A stretch of 33,922 nt of DNA from Chrysochromulina tobinii (lineage: Eukaryota), in NCBI GenBank assembly GCA_001275005.1, contig JWZX01002180.1:1-33922 (forward strand). The letters are read 5' to 3'. Both the position numbers and the translations under genes were made by a program. The notes below the pieces were generated by a model, which was not told the origin of the DNA, did no database searches, and saw only the letters and a program-made list of their open reading frames with translations. Position 1 is the first letter of the stretch. Every line of letters begins with the position of its first letter. Shown here piece after piece: positions 7,479-32,859 of the stretch.

Positions 7479-10400
7479 ATGGTGGCGCCGTCTCCTCCGT
7501 ATCCGCAGCGGACGCAATCGCCGACAAGTAGCAGGACCTCATCTCCATCAGCAGTCAAGGGCTCGCGTGCTCATCTCTTGGTGGCCCAGAGCCTATTCAA
7601 AGCTGTGTCCAAGGGAGCCGACCGCATCTCGATGGAGGCGATGAAGGCTCACCTACGTGAGCGTGGTGATGTGCCTGATGAGTTGCTCGACAGCGTAGTC
7701 AGCGCGCTTGATATCAACGGCGATGGCGAGATCGACCTGCATGAGTTTTCGCAAGGATGGGACACGGTGGCAGTCGAGAAGGCAGCGGCCGAGAAGGCAG
7801 CGGCTGAGAAGGCGGCGGCCGAGAAGGCGGCGGCGGCTGAGAAGGCGGCGGCTGAGAAGGCGGCGGCCGAGAAGGCCGAGGCGTCCGAGAAGGCGGCGGC
7901 CGCCGCGGCCACATACGATCCGAAACTCGTACAGCAGCAAATGAAGGAGATGGAGGCGGCCAAGGCGGCCGAGGCGACACGCAAGCAGCGCGAGGAGCTC
8001 GAGTACACTCGCGAGGCGATTCGACGCTCAGAGGAAGCGCAGCGTCTCAAGAAGCTGGCCGAGGAGGAAGAGGCTGAGAAGAAGAGAGTGGAGGAGATCG
8101 CCGCAGTTCGTCACAAGATGCTGATCTCGTCGGCCATGCCTCTACCTCTGCCACCGCCGCCGCCAGAACTACTCGTACCCGCTTCAGCCGCCACGGCGCC
8201 CGCCTCTAACAAGGCGGCAGCCGAGGAGGCGGCGGCCGAGAAGGCGGTGGCGCCCATGAAGGCAGCTGAGAAGGCAGCAGCTGAGAAGGCGGCGCTGGAC
8301 GAGTCCAAGGAGACGGCGGCGGAAGCGAAGGAGGAGGCAGCGAAGGAGGAGGCTACTAAGGCCGCTGCGGCCGAGGAGGGCGACGCTGCGGCAGCGGCGG
8401 CGCTTTCAAGGGCGATGGAGGCGGAGGCGCGCGCGGCGGCGGCGGAGGCGCGCGCGGCGGCGGCGGAGGCGCGTGCGGTGGAGGCAGAGGAGCGCGCTCG
8501 CCAGGCAGAGGTGAAGGCGGTCACCGCCTCTGCGGAGGCGGCGGCCGCCGCGGCAGCCCTCCTCGCCTCCACGCCACTGGTGCCAGATGCGCCAGTGGAT
8601 GCCTCACCGACGACCAGTGGTGCCCCTCCGGCAGGTGCCGCCCCGGCTGTAAAGAAGGTGGCGGCGGCGGAGAAGGCGGCCGCGACCGAGAAGGTGACGG
8701 TTGTCGAGAATGTGGCTGTTGAGAAGGCGGCGGCCGAGATGGCCGCAGCTGATAAGGCGGCCGATGAGAAGGCCCTGGAAAGGGGAGCAGCGGCGCTGGC
8801 AACGGAGGAGGCGGCGGCAAGGGAAGCTGCCAAGGGGGCCGTGGCGCCCGTGCAGACCGTGATCGCTCAGAGTGTCCCAACCGTCTCAAGACCATCCTCC
8901 GCCGAGTTGCTGGCAAGGGAGGAGGCAGCGCTCTTGGTCGAGCTTGCAAACGCTCAGAAGGCTCTCGCCGAGGCCGAAGCCGTCGAGAAGGCACTGGTCG
9001 AGGCTGCGGCGGCGGAGGCGGCAGCGGAGGCGGCGGCGGAGGCGGCAGTAGCGGCCGCCATCGTCCAAGCGGCCGCGCGGCGCTGGTTGGTGGGCTTCCG
9101 CGAGAGGCGACGGCTCGCAGCGCTCGAGGCGGCGGCACCGGCGCAGGTATCTCAACCAGCACTGCAAGCTCCCGAAAGGCCCCAAACCCCTGCCGAGGTC
9201 GTCGTGCAGGCGGTGATCGCTCAGAGTGTTCCAGCCGTCTCAAGACCATCCACCGCCGAGTTCATGGCAAGGGAGGAGGCAGCGCTGATGGTTGAGCTTG
9301 CAAACGCTCAGAAGGTTCTCGCCGAGGCCGAAGCCGCCGAGAAGGCACTGGTCGAGGCTTCGGCGGCGGAGGAACTCAATCATTTCGAGGCACAATTGGA
9401 GGTCGAGGAGGCGACAGTCACAGTACCTTCTGCCACCACAGAAGTAGAGGTCCTGGCAGGGGCGACGGCGGCAGCGCCTACTGAGGTAGTGGCGGCGATT
9501 GTCGCAGCGCCTGCTGCCACCGCTGAGGGGGCGGCAACCGAAAAGGTGGCCGCGGCCGAGAAGGTCGCAGCAGCCGAGGAAAACGCGACGGCCGAGAAAA
9601 AAGCGCTGGCCGAGAAGGCGACGGAGATAGAAAAGGCGGCGGCCGAGGCGAAGGCGGCCGCTGAGACAGAGAAGGTGGCTGTGGCCGAGAAGGCGGCAGC
9701 TCAAAAGGCGGCGGCCGAGAGAGCGGCGGCCGAGAGGGCGGCGGCGGCCGAGAAGGCGGCAGCCGAAAGGGCGGTGGTGGCCGAGAAGGCCGCGGCCGAA
9801 AAGGCGGTGGCCGACAAGGTAGCGGCCGAGAAGGCAGCAGCCGAGAGGGCAGCAGCCGAGAGGGCGGCGGCCGAGAGGGCTGCGGCCGAGAAGGCAGCGG
9901 CCGAAAAGGCGACGGCCGAGAAGGCGGCGGCCGAGAAGGCGGCGGCCGAGACAGCGGCGGCGGCGGCACGTGAGGTGCTGGTGGAGGCGACGGTGCAGTG
10001 GGTGATGGCAGAGGCGCTGCAGTTGGAGGCACGGAGGCAGATGGAAGAGAGGCAACGAAGGGCTGCGGCGGCAGCGGCGGGCCGTCGAAAAGTGCACAAG
10101 GCGGCACATGCCATCCGTGCGACGATTCGAATGCATGCCCTAGCAGAGGAGACGAGGGCCATTTCGAGGGCCGAAAAGGCTGTGCTCATTCGCAAGCTCG
10201 CGCTCGAAGAGTCTGCCTACGCTCTCGCCGTCGTCTGGGACCTCGCAATGAAGGAGTGTGATCTGTTGGCCGCCGAGAGGGTGGCAGCCGAGGCCGCAGC
10301 GGCTGAGGCAGCGATGGAGTCCGATCCCAAGATGAGGGCGCTCTTCGACAAGATTCTGACGGAGCCGAGTCTCGAGGGCACAACGCTCGTCGACATGATG

Positions 10401-11492
10401 CGGGCGCTCACGAAGGCTCGTGGGCACGTGGGCCTCGCGTTCCTTCACCTGCAAAGGGCTCATTCCGAGCCTCGACCAGCATTCATCTCAACAGTAGCAC
10501 TTCCCTCGGCTCGCACTGAGGCCGAGACTACGGCAGCTAAGGAAGCGGCAGCAAAGAAGGCGGCGGCTCAGGCAGCTGCGGCCGGCGCGACGGGCGCCGA
10601 GGCGCCGCTGCCTGAGGGGTGGATGCAGGTCAAGGCACCCGACGGGCGGACTTACTACTTGATTCAGGGAGGCGGCAAGCCGCAGTTCGAGCGTCCGACG
10701 GAGCCCGCATCCGCATCGTTCGGCCTATCGGAAGGGCGGATTCCGTTCGGATCGTGGCCTGCTCGCGGCATGACGCCTTTGGCCTCTCTGCCGCCGCTAC
10801 CTTCCACTCGACGTACCCAGGCGTGGTACGACCGGCAAGAACAGCTCCAAGAAAGGTTGAATGCGGGGCGGCTGTTACAGGAGGCTGCTGAGCAGCCTTT
10901 GCCGCTTCCAGCCATTGCTGACATCCAGCCTCAGCTGTGGCCCTCGACCACTTGGGCGGGATACGACTCGGCGAAGCGGATGAGAGGCCGCCACGACGGC
11001 AGTAACAGTGCGCACGGAGGCCTGCTTGGGGGGTCAAATGCTGCCGGTGGAGCAACAAAGCTTATAGACCCGACCTCATTTGAAACGCCCACCGCGCCAA
11101 AGGTAGCAGCTACCTCCAAGGCGAGCCCGCGCGTGCGGATAGCGCGCCAACAGGCAGAGTACAAGGGCGACACTCATCAACCGAAGGAGGCGACAAGCTT
11201 GAGCCCCCAGCTGATCTTGCCCAACCTAACACCTCGCTCGGGGATGGGAGCTGCGCGAACGGCAATGGAGCGCCAGTTGGCAGCGTACCATGAGATCTAC
11301 GGACAAGACCAACGTGTTGTCCATCATCACCAGCGGCTCAAGCCAAACTTAGTCAGGCCTGCACTGTCAGCAGAGACGCGTCCAGAAGCCACACTTCTAC
11401 CACACGTCAATGTGCTGGGAAGCGGGGCCGGGGGTAAAGGTAAGGGTACAAGTACGAAAAAGGCGCATGCGTACTTTGAAGCGTATGTATGA
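7479..11492 (+). CDS. EF-hand / IQ-like / WW domain protein with long AAAEK low-complexity repeats
   Basis: EF-hand loop [15 protein letters not shown]-like [16 protein letters not shown]-like [30 protein letters not shown]; (EKAAA)n tracts; about 56-aa internal duplication (8850-9017 vs 9204-9371). Confidence 0.8.
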
Positions 11493-20299: not shown

Positions 20300-20521
20300 T
20301 AAGGCAAGGCGCATTTGGACGAGGCGCACCTGATGAGGGTGGCAATCAGCATGCGCTCAGAGGGACCAGTCCGTGCCTATCAGGGCCAGTCTAAAGTCGA
20401 CGAGGCGCACATGTGCCCGCGCGTCCAGCAACACGTTCTCCGGCTTCAGATCACGGTAGAGCACCCCGCGCGCATGCATGTGCCCGAACACGCAGAAGAC
20501 TTCGGAGGCGACGAAGCGGAT
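20300..20521 (-). pseudogene. AGC-type protein kinase remnant, subdomains VIa-VII
   Basis: IRFVASEVFCVFGHMHARGVLYRDLKPENVLLDARAHVRLV(DF/QM)RLA; no N-lobe upstream and DFG degraded. Confidence 0.75.
20330..20410 (-). other. Intron (81 nt, GT-AG, phase 0) with type A acceptor cassette
   Basis: On the minus strand: CAT|GTGCGCCTCGTC...CTGATTGCCACCCTCATCAG|GTGCGCCTCGTC. 12-nt duplication of the exon start; 3' end matches introns at 3310-3495. Confidence 0.65.
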
Positions 20522-20549
20522 AGGCATGGGCGGCCGCTGCCCGAGCACC

Positions 20550-20725
20550 GACATACTCGCTGGCACCGGCGGTAACATGGCGCCTCGCTGGCACCGACGG
20601 ATGTACATACTCGCTGGCACCGACTGATACATGGCGCCTGAGGTCCTGAAGGCTGGCCGTTGCTTGCATGCGGTCAGTGCAGCGTGTGCTACTCAGCGCC
20701 AGCCGACTGGTTCACTTTCGGTGTG
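20550..20725 (+). pseudogene. Protein kinase remnant, subdomains VIII-IX, opposite strand to the previous fragment
   Basis: ILAGTD*YMAPEVLK (TGA at 20625-20627), frameshift, then YSAPADWFTFGV; the LAGT segment is present in three degenerate tandem copies. Confidence 0.7.
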
Positions 20726-20981
20726 GCCTCGAGCGCGTCCTTGACCACGACGGCGAGCGAGGCGCAGTACAAAGCGGAGCTGCAGCTGCTCGAGCAGCTC
20801 GACGAAGAGAATTCCTTCCCTTTTGTGGCGAGGCAGGCCATCGAGGATGAGTGCGTTCGTTTGAGCAGCACCTCGAGAGTCTTTAGTGTAAGTGGAAGTG
20901 TTAACACCGAGCCCGCTCTGGACGACCTGGATCCTATAGGAAACTTAGAAGTAACGGCGGAAACTTGGATTACGGAGCGAT

Positions 20982-23900
20982 ATGGAAACCCTGCCGGGTC
21001 CGAGCGCGGAGCCGCAAGACCTGCAAATGCACCCGATCCTCGAGCAGTGGGAATGCAATTCCGATGGCAGCATCACGGGTCGCGTGTACGGTAAAATGGG
21101 TTGGGAAGAGGGCATTCAAATGACCACCTCGATCGTGCCAACGGAGACGCACTACGCTACCTACGTCATCACGGTGTCTGGCAGCATCTACCGGCTTGGA
21201 GAGAAGCTGTCGGGCGTGGGTCAGACGGATACGAGGAACGCAGATGCTCAGCTGTTGATTCCAGCCACGTTGCCGGCAGCATCGGCGCAGCCACGAAGCA
21301 GTGGCCGTGCTAAGTGTGCACCCCTTGAATTCTGGAAGGGCGAACGGCCGATCTATGCCGCCAGTCCGAATGGTTTGACGCTGCAAGGCGTCATCCGCTA
21401 TCCGTGCTCCGACGCAGCAGCACTGCCTGCTAGCACGCAAAAGGCACGCGGCGCGTCCAGGCCCGCTCAGCGAGGCTCAAGCCCCGGAAAAACGTCGGAG
21501 AAAGAGGCGGCATCCATCTGCGCGTCCAAGGACGACTCGCAGCGCGAAGCCGCTTCCGCGGCTGCGGCGACGGCTGCTGCTCGGGCGAGGGAGGAGGCTG
21601 CAAGGGCGGCGACGACGGCGGCGGAGGCGCGCGCAGCGACGGCGGAGGCGAAGGCCCGAGCCGCACGTGCCGAACTGGAGGCGACTCGGGCGCGCGCAGC
21701 GGAGGCGGCGGCTGCAGCTGCGGCTGCGGCGGCGGCGATGGATGCCGCGCAGCGGGAGGCGGCTGCGGCAGCGACGGCGACTGAGGAGGCGCGGCGGGAG
21801 GTGGAAGCGGCGCAGCGGGAGGCAGCAGCTGCACTACCGGTCCTACCGGTACTGCCGCCCAAGCCCGGGCGCCCTCGTGCGCCAACGAAGCCTTTGGTGG
21901 TCGTCGCACCCATTGATATTGATCGCGACTCACCTGTTGCCATGGACAGCAGCCAATCGCCCATCAGCCCTCTAGCAGCTGCGGGCGAGCTCCTCGCAGG
22001 TTCGGTCGCCAAGGCACAGGCGGAGGCCGAGCGCGTGTGGAGTGCTCTCGGATCTGGCCTTTGTGGCTGGGCCGGCTGCACGAAGCCGGCGCGCCATTCT
22101 GGCTTTTGCGTGTCGGTGCCCGACTCCCGCCGTGAGAAGGAGCCAGTGCAGATGGATACGGCCAAGCCCGCGCCCAGCCCACGCGAGCTCATGAGTCATG
22201 CACGCAACGAGGGCAGGCTGCCGCCCTCAAAGAAGCCCAAGCTGGGCGATCGTGTCCGAGGCAAGTACCAGGGGCAGATAGGCGGCCGCAACTGGTTCGA
22301 CGGCGTGGTGACGGCGGTGCACGAGGATGGCACGTGCGATCTGCAGTACGATGATGGCGACTACGAGGAGCGCGTGGCGCCGCGGTTCATCAAGGTGATT
22401 GCCGAGGCAGAGACCGAGGAACGTGAGGAGGAAGAGGAGTCTGAGGTGGAGGAGGAGGAGGTGGTGGAGGAGCCCTCTGAGGGGCAGGGTACGGATGGTG
22501 CCAACCTTGGCGCAGCAAGCGTGTCCAAGCAGCCGCGCGAACGCAAGGCTCTGCACGAGGGCGGCAGCCATCGCCCTCGCATCAAGCCGGAAGAAGTCAG
22601 GGCTGTCGCAGCTGCTGAGGGTCTCGAGCTGCTGCTGTCGTCGAGGAATGAGACAGGCTTCAGGGACGTGACCAAGCGGAAAGGCAAGTATCATGCGGAT
22701 ATCCGCGAGACTGACGTTCATCGCAACATCCGCGGCACCTTAGCGACGCGGGAGGATGCGGCCTTGGGCTACGCGAGGCATATTGGGGCAGAGCGAGCGG
22801 CGGCGGAGGCGGCGGAGGGGAGGGCCGAATGTCCGCAGCCGCTCACAGCGGACGAGGCTAGGGCGGCCGCGGCGGCAGCAAGGGCTGCCGCGGTGGCCGA
22901 GGGGCTCAAGCTGGTGCCATCCTTGAGCAACGAGACGGGATTCAAGGGCGTGACCAAGCGGGAAAAGAGTTATGAGGCAAGGAAAAAGGAGAATGGTAAG
23001 CAGCGCCGCCTCGGCAGCTTCGCGACGGCTGAGGAGGCAGCCTTGTGCTATGCGAGGTACATTGGGGCGGAGCGAGCGGCGGCGGAGGCGGCGGAGGCAA
23101 GGGTCGAAGGGCCGCAGCCGCTCACAGCGGACGAGGCCAGGGCGGCCGCGGCGGCTGAGGGGCTCGAGCTGGTGCCGTCGTCCATTAGGAAGACAGGCTT
23201 CAAGTATGTGCACGCTCTTCCTGGAGGCAAGTTCGAGGCATCTGTGTGGGACCATGACAAGACGATCCATCTCGGCACCTTCGCGACGGCTGAGGAGGCG
23301 GCTTTGTGCTATGCGAGATACGTTGGGGTGGAGCGAGCGGCGGCAGAGGCGGCGGAGGCAAGGGTTGCAGCGCCGCAGCCGCTCACAGCGGACGAGGCCA
23401 GGGCGGCCGCAGCGGCTGAGGGGCTTGAGCTGGTGCCGTCATCGAGGTCGAGAAGTGTGGCAGGCTTCAAGGGCGTGCGAATGCACACTCCGTCATATTT
23501 TCAGTGTTCAGTCATAGAAGAGAATGGCGAGAAGAAGCGCTACCTGGGCACCTTCAGAACGCCGGAGGAGGCGGCCTTGTGCTACGCAAGGCATATTGGG
23601 GCTGAGCGAGCGGCGGCTGAGGCGGCGAAGGTGAGGGGTGAATGTCTTCAGCTCAAGGCGGACGAGGCCAGGGCGGCCGCGGCGGCCGAGGGGCTCGAGC
23701 TTGTGCTGTCGTCGAGCAGTCAGACAGGCTTCAAGGGCGTGTACAAGCATCATCGCAAGTACAAGGCGTACGTTTCGGAGAATGGCAACGGTTGCCACCT
23801 CGGCACCTTTGCGACAGCTGAGGAGGCGGCTTTGTGTCATGCGAGGTACATTGGGGCGGAGCGAGCGGCGGCAGAGGCGGCGGAGGCAAGGGTCGAAGTT

Positions 23901-25742
23901 CCCCAGCCGCTCACAGCGGACGAGGCCAGGGCGGCCGCGGCGGCCGAGGGACTTGAGCTGGTGCCGTCATCGAGCAACGAGACGGGATTCAAGGGCGTGA
24001 CCAAGCGTGATGGCAAGTACGCAACGCGGATCAGGGAGAATGGCAAGCAGCACTACCGCGGCACCTTCGCGACAGCTGAGGAGGCGGCCTTGTGCTATGC
24101 GAGGTACATTGGGGTGGAGCGAGCGGCGGCGGAGGCGGCGGAGGCAAGGGTTGCAGCGCGGCAGCCGCTCACAGCGGACGAGGCCAGGGCGGCCGCGGCG
24201 GCTGAGGGGCTCGAGCTGGTGCCGTCATCGAGGTCGAGAAGTGTGGCAGGCTTCAAGTACGTGCAAATGGACTCTCCTTCTCATTTCAGTGTGCGAGTCA
24301 CAGAAGAGAATGGCGAGAAGAAGCGCTACCCGGGCACCTTCAGAACACCGGAGGAGGCGGCCTTGTGCTACGCGAGGCATATTGGGGCTGAGCGAGCGGC
24401 GGCGGAGGCGGCGGAGGCAAGGGTTGTGGCGCCACAGCCGCACAAAACGGACGAGAGGGCGCGTGCGGCGGCCGAGGGGCTCGAGCCGGCGGAGGCGCAC
24501 CTCGGTTGGTGCGTGCTGCATTCAGCGCTTCCCGACGACCGACGCAAGCTGCAAGACTCGCCCTCATCGTCGGCGCCGCCACCGACATCAACACCTTCTG
24601 CAACCGAGCACGCCTCGCGCAAGCGGCTAGCGGCTGCCGTTGCCTGTGCAGAGGTGGTCTTGCAGGGATCGGTGGACAAGGCCAGGGCCGCCGCAGCGGC
24701 CGAGGGGCTCAAGTTGGTGCCTTCCTTGAGCAACGAGACGGGCTTCAAGGGCGTGAGCAAGAGTTATGGCAGGTATGATGCACGGATCAGGGAGAATGGT
24801 AAGCAGCGCCACCTCGGTATCTTCGCGACGGCGGAGGAGGCGGCCTTGTGCTACGCGAGGCATATTGGGGCGGAACGAGCGGCGGAAGAGGCAGCGGAGG
24901 CGACGAAAAAGCCGCTGCCGCTCACAGCGGACGAGGCCAGGGCGGCCGCGGCGGCTGAGGGGCTCGAGCTGGTACAGTCGTCAAGCAATGAGACGGGCTT
25001 CAAGGGCGTGGTGAAGCATTATGGCAAGTACGCAACGCGGATCAGGGTGAATCATCATCATAGCTCCCTCGGCACCTTTGCAACGCCGGAGGAAGCCTCC
25101 CTCACCCTCGCACGCTATGTTCGCGACCTTGTCGATGGCTGGCTCATCCCTGGCCGTCGTCCTCCCCACCATCCTCCGCGTCAAGCACCAGTCCCCGCCC
25201 CGCCCACTCCAACCCAAGTCGAGCGGGCGGAGGCCCTCCGCTGCTGGCGTCTGCTGCTTACAGCGATGCGCGACGACCGACGCAAGCAGCAAGACTCAAC
25301 CTCATCGTCGGCGCCGCCACCACCGCCATCACCAGCTGGCGCGACCGGTCACGCCTCACGCAAGCGGCCAGCTGCTGCAGTGGCTTGTGCCGAGGTGGAC
25401 TCGCAGCGAGCGATGACTCTCCAGGCACAGCTCACGGCCGAGAGGAGTGATGACCCTCGCGCGGCTCATTGCATCATCTGTCTCGAAGCCCTGGACTTGA
25501 GGGCGGCAAGCGCCAGCTCACGAGGCGAGGCCGCATGCGGGCACACTCCTTGCTGCGGCAACTACTACCACAAGCGCTGCCTGAGCCAATGGCTGCAAGG
25601 CTCCGGGCAGTCGGGCATCACGGTGTCTACTGAGCCCAAGTGCCCGACGTGCAGGCGGGATCTAGTGGCTCGCGCGCTCATCCCCGGGCCGTACACTAAG
25701 GCAATAGAGAAAGATATGGCGGAGGAGGAACCATGGTTCTAA
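20982..25742 (+). CDS. 1586-aa multidomain protein: SANTA-like? - CENP-C motif - Ala-rich coil - Tudor - 9x AP2-like - RING
   Basis: RSSGRAKCAPLEFWKGERPIY (21294-21356); Tudor-like LGDRVRGKY...WFDGVVTAVHEDGTCDLQYDDGDYEE; nine TGFKGV...GTFATAEEAALCYAR units; C-terminal CIIC...C.H..CC..YYHKRCLSQWL...CPTC. Confidence 0.88.
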   Translation: METLPGPSAEPQDLQMHPILEQWECNSDGSITGRVYGKMGWEEGIQMTTSIVPTETHYATYVITVSGSIYRLGEKLSGVGQTDTRNADAQLLIPATLPAASAQPRSSGRAKCAPLEFWKGERPIYAASPNGLTLQGVIRYPCSDAAALPASTQKARGASRPAQRGSSPGKTSEKEAASICASKDDSQREAASAAAATAAARAREEAARAATTAAEARAATAEAKARAARAELEATRARAAEAAAAAAAAAAAMDAAQREAAAAATATEEARREVEAAQREAAAALPVLPVLPPKPGRPRAPTKPLVVVAPIDIDRDSPVAMDSSQSPISPLAAAGELLAGSVAKAQAEAERVWSALGSGLCGWAGCTKPARHSGFCVSVPDSRREKEPVQMDTAKPAPSPRELMSHARNEGRLPPSKKPKLGDRVRGKYQGQIGGRNWFDGVVTAVHEDGTCDLQYDDGDYEERVAPRFIKVIAEAETEEREEEEESEVEEEEVVEEPSEGQGTDGANLGAASVSKQPRERKALHEGGSHRPRIKPEEVRAVAAAEGLELLLSSRNETGFRDVTKRKGKYHADIRETDVHRNIRGTLATREDAALGYARHIGAERAAAEAAEGRAECPQPLTADEARAAAAAARAAAVAEGLKLVPSLSNETGFKGVTKREKSYEARKKENGKQRRLGSFATAEEAALCYARYIGAERAAAEAAEARVEGPQPLTADEARAAAAAEGLELVPSSIRKTGFKYVHALPGGKFEASVWDHDKTIHLGTFATAEEAALCYARYVGVERAAAEAAEARVAAPQPLTADEARAAAAAEGLELVPSSRSRSVAGFKGVRMHTPSYFQCSVIEENGEKKRYLGTFRTPEEAALCYARHIGAERAAAEAAKVRGECLQLKADEARAAAAAEGLELVLSSSSQTGFKGVYKHHRKYKAYVSENGNGCHLGTFATAEEAALCHARYIGAERAAAEAAEARVEVPQPLTADEARAAAAAEGLELVPSSSNETGFKGVTKRDGKYATRIRENGKQHYRGTFATAEEAALCYARYIGVERAAAEAAEARVAARQPLTADEARAAAAAEGLELVPSSRSRSVAGFKYVQMDSPSHFSVRVTEENGEKKRYPGTFRTPEEAALCYARHIGAERAAAEAAEARVVAPQPHKTDERARAAAEGLEPAEAHLGWCVLHSALPDDRRKLQDSPSSSAPPPTSTPSATEHASRKRLAAAVACAEVVLQGSVDKARAAAAAEGLKLVPSLSNETGFKGVSKSYGRYDARIRENGKQRHLGIFATAEEAALCYARHIGAERAAEEAAEATKKPLPLTADEARAAAAAEGLELVQSSSNETGFKGVVKHYGKYATRIRVNHHHSSLGTFATPEEASLTLARYVRDLVDGWLIPGRRPPHHPPRQAPVPAPPTPTQVERAEALRCWRLLLTAMRDDRRKQQDSTSSSAPPPPPSPAGATGHASRKRPAAAVACAEVDSQRAMTLQAQLTAERSDDPRAAHCIICLEALDLRAASASSRGEAACGHTPCCGNYYHKRCLSQWLQGSGQSGITVSTEPKCPTCRRDLVARALIPGPYTKAIEKDMAEEEPWF
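22617..25118 (+). repeat. Coding tandem array of nine AP2-like domains (about 86-90 aa, about 260 nt per unit)
   Basis: Conserved scaffold PLTADEARAAAAAEGLELVPS...GFKGV and GTFATAEEAALCYARxIGAERAAAEAAE with variable sequence between. Confidence 0.88.
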
Positions 25743-30574: not shown

Positions 30575-31255
30575 TCACGGCATCGAGTGCTCACGCAGCC
30601 ACGTGGCTGCTTCCTCTTTGCTGACGGGTAAGCAATCATCGATCGAGGCGCTCGCCACCATCGAGTAGTAGCGGCGCGCCATATTCTCGTCGTACGGAAA
30701 GCCATTGAGGCCACCTCCGTATGCGTATCCCAGAATGAAGCACGCGCTCTTGCTGCCTCGTGTGGCGGCCTCGCTCATCACCGTAACACCACGCGTAAGG
30801 CACGCCGGCACGCCTTTACCCATCAAGTAGCACCTGCCAAGGCAGCCAGTCCCACTGAGATCCCCAGCCTCGTAGCTCTTCTCGAACCACTTGAAAGCCT
30901 TGGCCTTGTCCTCAGCGAGGCCCTTGTCACCAAGCTCGTACCATAGCCCCAGGTTGTACATGGCACAGCCATCACCAGACTCGGCCAAGAGCCGCGTCTC
31001 CGTCACCACCTCCTCTTCATTCAGCCTCAGCTCCAACGCCTCGGTCAAGAGCCGCGTCTCATTCACATCCTCCTCCTCCACTTCGTCACCCGTGCGAGCG
31101 CCCTGTGTTTGGGTAGCAAAGATGTCTTCCTTCAACAATATTTCCTCGTTCGATGCTCGCGCGGCTCGTCCTTTCTTCCCCTTAGGCGCTAAATGAAGCC
31201 CGGGGACTTGACGCATTGGCGCGCGCGCGTGCGAATCCGGGTCGTCTTTCGGCAT
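30575..31255 (-). CDS. Sel1-repeat protein, copy 1
   Basis: AMYNLGLWYELGDKGLAEDKAKAFKWFEKS, LGRCYLMGKGV, ACFILGYAYGGGLNGFPYDENMARRYY are Sel1-like repeats. Confidence 0.85.
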   Translation of the reverse strand: MPKDDPDSHARAPMRQVPGLHLAPKGKKGRAARASNEEILLKEDIFATQTQGARTGDEVEEEDVNETRLLTEALELRLNEEEVVTETRLLAESGDGCAMYNLGLWYELGDKGLAEDKAKAFKWFEKSYEAGDLSGTGCLGRCYLMGKGVPACLTRGVTVMSEAATRGSKSACFILGYAYGGGLNGFPYDENMARRYYSMVASASIDDCLPVSKEEAATWLREHSMP

Positions 31256-32088: not shown

Positions 32089-32859
32089 TCACGGCATCGA
32101 GTGCTCACGCAGCCACGTGGCTGCTTCCTCTTTGCTGACGGGTAAGCAATCATCGACCGAGGCGCTCGCCACCATCGAGTAGTAGCGGCGCGCCATATTC
32201 TCGTCGTACGGAAAGCCATTGAGGCCACCTCCGTATGCGTACCCCAGAATGAAGCACGCGCTCTTGCTGCCTCGTGTGGCGGCCTCGCTCATCACCGTAA
32301 CACCACGCGTAAGGCACGCCGGCACGCCTTTACCCATCAAGTAGCACCTGCCAAGGCAGCCAGTCCCACTGAGATCCCCAGCCTCGTAGCTCTTCTCGAA
32401 CCACTTGAAAGCCTTGGCCTTGTCCTCAGCGAGGCCCTTGTCACCAAGCTCGTACCATAGCCCCAGGTTGTACATGGCACAGCCATCACCAGACTCGGCC
32501 AAGAGCCGCGTCTCCGTCACCACCTCCTCTTCATCCGGCCTCAGCTCCAACGCCTCGGTCAACAGCCGCGTCTCATTCCTCTCCTCCTCTTCCTCCTCCA
32601 GCCTCACCTCCTTGTCCTCCTTCAGCCTCAGCTCCAACGCCTCGGTCAAGAGCCGCGTCTCATTCACATCCTCTTCCTCCTCCACTTCGTCACCCGTGCG
32701 AGCGCCCTGTGTTTGGGTAGCAAAGATGTCTTCCTTCAACAACATTTCCTCGTTCGATGCTCGCGCGGCTCGTCCTTTCTTCCCCTTAGGCGCTAAATGA
32801 AGCCCGGGGACTTGACGCATTGGCGCGCGCGCGTGCGAATCCGGGTCGTCTTTCGGCAT
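32089..32859 (-). CDS. Sel1-repeat protein, copy 2
   Basis: Near-identical to copy 1, with 30 extra residues including one more ETRLLTEALELR unit. Confidence 0.85.
   Translation of the reverse strand: MPKDDPDSHARAPMRQVPGLHLAPKGKKGRAARASNEEMLLKEDIFATQTQGARTGDEVEEEEDVNETRLLTEALELRLKEDKEVRLEEEEEERNETRLLTEALELRPDEEEVVTETRLLAESGDGCAMYNLGLWYELGDKGLAEDKAKAFKWFEKSYEAGDLSGTGCLGRCYLMGKGVPACLTRGVTVMSEAATRGSKSACFILGYAYGGGLNGFPYDENMARRYYSMVASASVDDCLPVSKEEAATWLREHSMP

What the first reader, a model, noticed from the sequence alone, without database searches (positions are those of the whole stretch)
20982..25742. Centromere-type CENP-C motif fused to Tudor, a nine-unit AP2 DNA-binding array and a RING finger
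Seen: RSSGRAKCAPLEFWKGERPIYAASPNGLTLQGVIRY, then Tudor, 9 AP2-like units and a RING in one uninterrupted ORF. Known: the pattern RxxxRxxxxPLxYWxGERxxY is the CENP-C motif, which binds CENP-A nucleosomes and occurs in CENP-C/Mif2 and KNL2/M18BP1. Inference: the protein could link sequence-specific DNA reading (AP2 array), methyl-histone reading (Tudor), CENP-A nucleosome binding and ubiquitination, for example as a sequence-guided centromere specification or CENP-A turnover factor. I know of no described protein with this architecture.
Basis: partly seen in the sequence, partly recalled or inferred. Interest (0 to 1): 0.85.

Follow-up and report, generated by a model that had tools for sequence, protein, structure and literature searches.

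The report
Young algal gene captures centromere-binding motif
A freshwater alga has a patchwork gene that joins a centromere-type nucleosome-binding motif, copied from another of its genes, to nine DNA-binding-type repeats and a ubiquitin-ligase-type finger, so it likely encodes a DNA-guided chromatin tagger that may act at centromeres.

The parts
20982..25742 (+). Single-exon ORF, 1586 aa, chimeric chromatin protein
   Evidence: exact protein on 13 contigs; no GT-AG joint among the joints listed for 4 RNA runs (2 rows not shown)
21027..21209 (+). SANTA-like beta domain (aa 16-76), derived from the 5' end of the Ctob_007055-type gene (beta domain, CW, ELM2/SANT)
21208..21270 (+). 63-bp linker, 98% identical to the start of an unrelated 2.9-kaa ORF in L005; overlaps the parent-derived part in a 19-nt near-match
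21253..21538 (+). First segment copied from the short CENP-C-motif gene (from its ATG to the FxF position, which is degenerate here)
   Evidence: 84% nt identity to L002/L003/L004; alignment A2
21294..21356 (+). CENP-C motif: R109 anchor, F117-W118, GER, Y125; similarity to CENP-C continues to about aa 140
   Evidence: spacing equals chicken KNL2 R527/F535/W536 and CENP-C R659/Y667/W668 (PMC10015371, passages)
21539..21850 (+). 312-bp Ala/Glu/Arg-rich insertion that splits the parent-derived sequence (likely helical spacer; inferred)
21851..22015 (+). Second segment copied from the CENP-C-motif gene
   Evidence: 84% nt identity; dN/dS 0.6
22062..22115 (+). Small C2H-C zinc knuckle (WRKY19-type)
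   Evidence: PF24906 E 3.6e-5, below cut-off
22242..22373 (+). Tudor/Agenet-like domain
   Evidence: Tudor_5 E 5e-4, Agenet E 0.03, both below cut-off; no PDB sequence support
22617..24395 (+). AP2-like units 1-7, about 87-aa repeats with a variable beta sheet
24702..25133 (+). AP2-like units 8-9
25467..25655 (+). RING finger (H2-like; one ligand position reads Asn)
   Evidence: zf-RING_2 29 bits, above cut-off; 72 of 75 residues identical in the second lineage

Best explanation
This is a young chimeric Chrysochromulina gene, built from copied pieces of at least two other genes plus an AP2/Tudor/RING module, that likely encodes a DNA-reading ubiquitin ligase predicted to dock on centromeric (CenH3) nucleosomes through its CENP-C motif. 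Shown: the parts, the copied origin of the motif and the beta domain, and low dN/dS in the motif. Inferred: the AP2 array grips a long or repeated DNA site; R109 binds the H2A/H2B acidic patch and F117-W118 the CenH3 tail; the Tudor and SANTA-like domains add contacts to histone tails or partners; the RING then ubiquitylates a nearby histone or kinetochore protein. Most likely it is an accessory, lineage-specific modifier of centromeric chromatin (removing or tuning CenH3 at particular sequences, or competing with the parent protein), not the core kinetochore scaffold.
For: Origin: 21253-21538 and 21851-22015 match a separate single-exon 383-aa gene at 84% nt, starting at its ATG. That gene has an ortholog at 44% identity that keeps the motif, the FxF motifs and the basic C-terminus (P0155), and polyA-run contigs cover it from its ATG to past its stop. 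The beta domain matches the start of Ctob_007055 and its orthologs. Selection: against the parent, dS is even (0.42 in the motif, 0.41 after it), but dN/dS is 0.15-0.18 in the motif and 0.39-0.6 after it (Fisher p 0.007 for the motif plus hairpin). Of sites shared by parent and outgroup, the chimera changed 1 of 25 in the motif region and 9 of 35 elsewhere, including both Phe of the FxF motif (p 0.035). Between the two lineages the motif region is 38 of 40 identical, the RING 72 of 75 and the Tudor 51 of 55, versus 39 of 60 and 20 of 30 in two linkers. AP2 beta-sheet positions have pN/pS 1.09 versus 0.42 in the scaffold, as expected for DNA-contact residues that diversify (unit pairs are not independent). 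A 43-residue CENP-C-like peptide suffices for CENP-A nucleosome binding in chicken KNL2 (PMC10015371, passages).
Against: No binding, localisation or E3 data. Pairwise dN/dS mixes both branches: neutrality of the chimera's motif is rejected if half of dS lies on its branch (p 0.005) but not if only 30% does (p 0.17). Some non-domain stretches are also well conserved between lineages (linker aa 79-100, 20 of 22; Ala-rich insert, 91 of 94), which weakens the domain-versus-linker contrast. The residue that contacts the CENP-A RG loop in chicken KNL2 (D544) is Ala here. RNA contigs are short and shallow, none spans the ORF, and contigs of the same runs also lie on intergenic DNA. Pieces of this N-terminus appear in other, unrelated ORFs (L005, P0007, P0008, P0012), so such fusions arise often and some must be passengers. 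No Chrysochromulina CenH3 was examined.
Confidence: 0.45

Rival explanations
1. The protein is a sequence-specific chromatin E3 of an expanded AP2-array family acting at non-centromeric loci (genes, transposons or integrated viruses), and it uses the captured motif only as a generic acidic-patch anchor.
For: The beta domain with Tudor, AP2 and RING occurs without the motif in P0165, and in part in P0071, P0184 and five RING proteins. AP2/ERF is 33% of E. huxleyi transcription factors (PMC4827209, passages). The array has 3-9 units among alleles (short-read collapse possible) and a variable sheet.
Against: The part of the motif that reads the CENP-A tail (PLEFW) and the downstream hairpin are kept, not just the Arg anchor.
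Confidence: 0.27
2. The motif is a passenger: frequent gene-fragment copying produced an in-frame fusion, and the motif is intact only because little time has passed or because constraint acted on the parent.
For: The same pieces recur in unrelated ORFs (L005, P0007, P0008/9, P0011, P0012, P0058). RNA evidence is weak. Neutrality is not rejected if the chimera's branch is short. A young centromere-associated gene can be dispensable (HP6/Umbrea, PMC10523450, search listing only).
Against: dS to the parent is 0.4; the neighbouring conserved FxF motif decayed while the CENP-C motif did not; the long ORF is open in two lineages.
Confidence: 0.2
3. It is the haptophyte KNL2/M18BP1 ortholog (SANTA plus CENPC-k motif) with extra domains.
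For: SANTA-like domain followed by the motif, as in vertebrate M18BP1; the SGR...PLEFW wording matches the plant CENPC-k motif KRSRSGRV/LLVSPLEFW (PMC9210943, passages).
Against: The two parts come from different, still existing genes. The domain lacks SANTA's three helices and its C-terminal GF..GFP..W motif. Among the best 150 of 242 hits in 1.84 billion representatives, only the chimera's own relatives carry both parts.
Confidence: 0.06
4. The fusion is an assembly artefact.
For: Repeat-rich region; no single RNA contig spans it.
Against: Same protein on 13 contigs, 100% identical L001, a C. parva gene model and a diverged lineage with the same junctions.
Confidence: 0.02

Closest known systems
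KNL2 / M18BP1 (SANTA plus CENP-C-like motif)
   Same: SANTA-like beta domain just N-terminal to a motif with the same R...FW spacing and SGR wording
   Different: Only the beta core, no SANTA helices; assembled recently from two genes; carries an AP2 array, Tudor and RING that KNL2 lacks; no SANT
CENP-C / Mif2
   Same: CENP-C motif with GER and the downstream hairpin similarity (PDB 7bxt, 7by0, 7xhn, 4x23, 6qld)
   Different: No cupin; motif is N-terminal. The parent gene (L004:10016-11167) is the better CENP-C candidate but also has no Pfam cupin match
Haptophyte AP2/ERF expansion and algal Tudor-AP2-RING modular proteins (P0165, P0071, P0184)
   Same: Same AP2 unit type, Tudor, beta domain and RING in shuffled orders
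   Different: None of those examined has a CENP-C motif; nine units here
Psh1 (yeast RING E3 for Cse4/CenH3)
   Same: RING ligase aimed at centromeric histone (functional analogy; abstracts' openings only)
   Different: No homology tested or expected; Psh1 has no DNA-binding array or CENP-C motif (recalled)
UHRF1/VIM, KRAB-ZNF and PRDM9-type reader-writer proteins (recalled, no call)
   Same: A DNA-reading module coupled to histone readers and a chromatin-modifying activity; variable DNA-contact residues in a tandem array
   Different: AP2 rather than SRA or C2H2 modules; has a CenH3-type nucleosome anchor

Membership tests
CENP-C motif | Arg anchor with an aromatic pair 8-9 residues downstream, then G/N-E-R..Y | tested here: met
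   R109, F117, W118, G120-E121-R122, Y125; PDB hits; spacing from PMC10015371
CENP-C motif | Binds CENP-A/CenH3 nucleosomes selectively | not testable with these tools
   No Chrysochromulina histone sequence was returned by any search, so no complex was predicted
CENP-C / Mif2 protein | C-terminal cupin dimerisation domain | tested here: not met
   No cupin or CENP-C_C Pfam match in the chimera or in the parent and its ortholog P0015, P0041, P0155
KNL2/M18BP1 | SANTA beta core | tested here: inconclusive
KNL2/M18BP1 | SANTA C-terminal three helices and GFxxxxxxxFxxGFPxxW motif | tested here: not met
   Motif absent from the sequence after aa 76; no helices modelled after the beta core in the donor-type protein, though that model is low-confidence there; definitions
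KNL2/M18BP1 | Orthology: SANTA and motif inherited together | tested here: not met
   Parts traced to two separate extant genes
AP2/ERF domain | Three-strand sheet plus helix, GF/YxGV ... GTFxTAEEAA pattern | tested here: met
   Profile hits 5 AP2/ERF chains at E 1.5e-6 to 0.003; single units below the Pfam cut-off
AP2/ERF domain | Sequence-specific DNA binding | not testable with these tools
   Inferred only; variable sheet
RING E3 | Cross-brace Cys/His ligands | tested here: met
   zf-RING_2 above cut-off; the fourth ligand position reads Asn, with spare Cys/His nearby
RING E3 | Ubiquitin ligase activity | not testable with these tools
   none
Tudor methyl-lysine reader | Tudor fold with aromatic cage | tested here: inconclusive
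   Sub-threshold Tudor_5 and Agenet matches; no PDB sequence hit; fold not predicted

The most novel reading that the evidence does not exclude
A KNL2-like centromere-targeting head (SANTA-like domain plus CENP-C motif) was rebuilt de novo by gene-fragment shuffling and wired to a programmable, fast-diversifying AP2 array and a RING. The result is a sequence-guided CenH3 editor: it reads centromeric DNA and licenses or removes CenH3 nucleosomes there, a genetic layer on an epigenetic centromere and a candidate centromere-drive modifier.
Probability: 0.2. Interest if true: 0.9.

Novelty: new variant of a known kind. Interest (0 to 1): 0.62.

Why it matters
In the papers read here the CENP-C motif belongs to CENP-C and KNL2/M18BP1, and how DNA sequence feeds into epigenetic centromeres is an open question. 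One polypeptide holding a CenH3-type anchor, a variable DNA-binding array and an E3 gives a direct test: find the array's DNA target and ask whether it is the centromere. It is also a datable case of a young gene capturing a kinetochore motif. Two by-products stand whatever its function. A short, cupin-less CENP-C-motif gene with conserved FxF motifs is a candidate haptophyte inner-kinetochore protein. And a SANTA-like beta domain is a common mobile module in algal chromatin proteins, whereas the 2026 structure paper suggests SANTA may be unique to M18BP1 apart from phage look-alikes.

Tried and rejected
No genome is held for this window, so family size, CenH3, a canonical CENP-C and a true SANTA gene could not be searched. 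Pfam gave no family for the N-terminal 200 aa. No SANTA match appeared among the families shown for 69 (E<=0.5) and 77 (E<=0.001) whole proteins. Family profiles A1 and A5 did not find SANTA in the PDB by sequence. ESM Atlas gave only sub-0.9 phage/bacterial clusters for the domain; for P0155 it gave no feature hit and two CENP-C clusters among 10 structure rows, all under its bar; not used as evidence. A search with P0155 found no further ortholog: of 13 other hits, none showed the motif in the later pattern scan. A viral origin of the AP2 array was not supported: 38 viral loci, 34-56% identical over part of one unit. L006 is a chance bacterial match; P0183 is spurious. No terminal inverted repeats or target duplications flank the gene in the regions scanned. 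RNA contigs show no spanning transcript, and gaps prove nothing. Folding the donor-type protein gave no helices after the beta core. Four look-ups of earlier scan findings returned nothing. Literature: searches listed no paper on this architecture; none of the 20 listed of 97 papers contains 'AP2 domain'; PMC5579357's main text does not mention Emiliania or haptophytes (figures and supplements not seen, and they may list haptophyte CENP-C). One row was dropped from the count (a TTG read as Met by the aligner), giving 9 of 35.

Full report
Observation. The ORF at 20982-25742 (+) encodes 1586 aa without a stop. Its cluster in the protein collection holds 18 members, among them a 276-aa partial model named Ctob_004979 of Chrysochromulina tobinii and a 1594-aa C. 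parva model; the exact protein is on 13 contigs. A metagenome locus is 100% identical over 20,441 nt. A second lineage (P0002-5, P0032-36), 92-93% identical in the N-terminal region, has the same order of parts with 3-6 AP2 units in its full-length members. The fusion is therefore genomic, not a mis-join.

Domains. phmmer of aa 1-160 against the PDB returned 6 sequences at E<=10, all on the motif; five are named CENP-C or Mif2 (best E 9e-4). A strict motif pattern appeared in 0 of 20,000 shuffles. R109, F117 and W118 have the spacing of chicken KNL2 R527/F535/W536 and CENP-C R659/Y667/W668, which contact the H2A/H2B acidic patch and the CENP-A tail; the RG-loop contact D544 corresponds to Ala126 here (PMC10015371, passages). 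Nine AP2-like units were counted. Their profile finds AP2/ERF structures (E 1.5e-6), although single units stay under the Pfam cut-off. The RING passes its cut-off; the Tudor and a small zinc knuckle are sub-threshold.

Origin. The motif came from a separate gene. Window 21253-21538 and 21851-22015 are 84% identical to the first 455 nt of a single-exon 383-aa ORF (L004:10016-11167; also L002, L003), starting at its ATG; a 312-bp Ala-rich insertion separates the two pieces. Contigs of a polyA run cover this parent from 10015 to 11483 with two small gaps and no splice joint. It has an ortholog at 44% identity (P0155) that keeps the motif, acidic FxF motifs and a basic C-terminus; neither has a cupin match. 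The beta domain matches the 5' end of Ctob_007055 and its orthologs, which lack the motif; longer alleles of the chimera keep that gene's MQEPEL-type start. Between the two lies a 63-bp piece 98% identical to the start of an unrelated 2.9-kaa ORF (L005), which overlaps the parent's first codons in a 19-nt near-match; the direction of that transfer is unresolved. The same fragments turn up in other ORFs (P0007, P0008/9, P0011, P0012, P0058; mostly one or two short contigs each). Copying of gene 5' ends, joined at short homologies, thus looks recurrent in this genus; the mechanism is inferred, and no transposon ends were found.

Is the motif maintained? Against the parent, dS is about 0.4 both in and after the motif, so local gene conversion is not the cause of similarity. 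dN/dS is 0.15-0.18 in the motif, 0.39 after it and 0.6 in the second piece. Of positions shared by parent and outgroup, the chimera changed 1 of 25 in the motif region and 9 of 35 elsewhere, including both Phe of the FxF motif (p 0.035, after dropping one aligner artefact). The test is modest: neutrality on the chimera's branch is rejected if that branch holds half of dS (p 0.005) but not at 30% (p 0.17). Between the two lineages the domains are 93-96% identical and two linkers 65-67%, but other linkers are 85-97%. Among AP2 units the sheet has pN/pS 1.09 and the scaffold 0.42 (pairs not independent).

Expression. Four RNA runs give short, shallow contigs along the ORF. Some bridge internal junctions (21105-21255, 21415-21634, 22487-22715, and 24944-25321 overlapping 25292-25575), none spans the gene, and the same runs also cover intergenic DNA, so DNA carry-over is not excluded.

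Mechanism. Most likely (0.45) the protein binds DNA through the array, docks on a CenH3 nucleosome through the motif, adds contacts through the Tudor and SANTA-like domains, and ubiquitylates a nearby histone or kinetochore protein, as an accessory modifier of centromeric chromatin. Every functional step is inferred. Rivals: a non-centromeric AP2-array E3 using the motif as a general nucleosome anchor (0.27; AP2/ERF is strongly expanded in E. huxleyi, PMC4827209, passages); a passenger motif (0.2); true KNL2 orthology (0.06); artefact (0.02).

Comparison and novelty. It resembles KNL2 at the head, Psh1 in possible outcome (abstract openings only) and UHRF1, PRDM9 or KRAB-ZNF proteins in design (recalled). 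It fails membership in CENP-C (no cupin) and in KNL2 (incomplete SANTA, composite origin). Seven literature searches listed no description of a CENP-C motif fused to AP2 or RING domains, or of haptophyte inner-kinetochore proteins; the library lacks most subscription papers, and supplements were not read. Verdict: a real, apparently undescribed, genus-restricted fusion of known parts, with moderate evidence that the centromeric motif is functional; new variant of a known kind, interest 0.62.

Noticed in passing
L004:10016-11167 (also L002:7370, L003:10016; proteins P0013-16, P0037-50, ortholog P0155): Short single-exon gene with an N-terminal CENP-C motif, conserved acidic FxF motifs (possible cohesin-binding F/YxF type; recalled, untested), a basic C-terminus and no cupin match; candidate haptophyte CENP-C-like or KNL2-like protein, covered by polyA RNA contigs.
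   Followed up: partly
P0039 (480 aa, one 1740-nt contig): Chimera's N-terminus (SANTA-like domain plus motif) joined to the parent's C-terminus inside the motif; either an assembly join or a recombinant allele with a KNL2-like layout.
   Followed up: no
P0053-P0195: The SANTA-like beta domain is a widespread mobile module, often in 2-6 copies per protein or beside chromatin domains, with phage relatives (phrog_11960, phrog_8840) and a structural tie to the DNMT1 RFTS beta domain; it has no Pfam family of its own.
   Followed up: partly
L005:9986-18736: Intron-less ORF of about 2900 aa with internal repeats, whose first 21 codons are shared with the chimera's linker.
   Followed up: partly
window 20340-20800 (-): Degraded protein kinase fragment with stops and short tandem duplications just upstream of the gene; a polyA-run contig of depth 52 covers 20361-20886.
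   Followed up: partly
L004:9480-9890: High-copy repeat just upstream of the parent gene (summed contig depth in the thousands in the DNA run).
   Followed up: no
window 30575-31255 and 32089-32859 (-): Two near-identical tandem copies of a gene whose C-terminus looks like Sel1 repeats (by eye).
   Followed up: no
window 24535-24655 and 25275-25400: An internal duplicated low-complexity segment with a basic RKR motif follows AP2 units 7 and 9, marking a block duplication within the array.
   Followed up: partly
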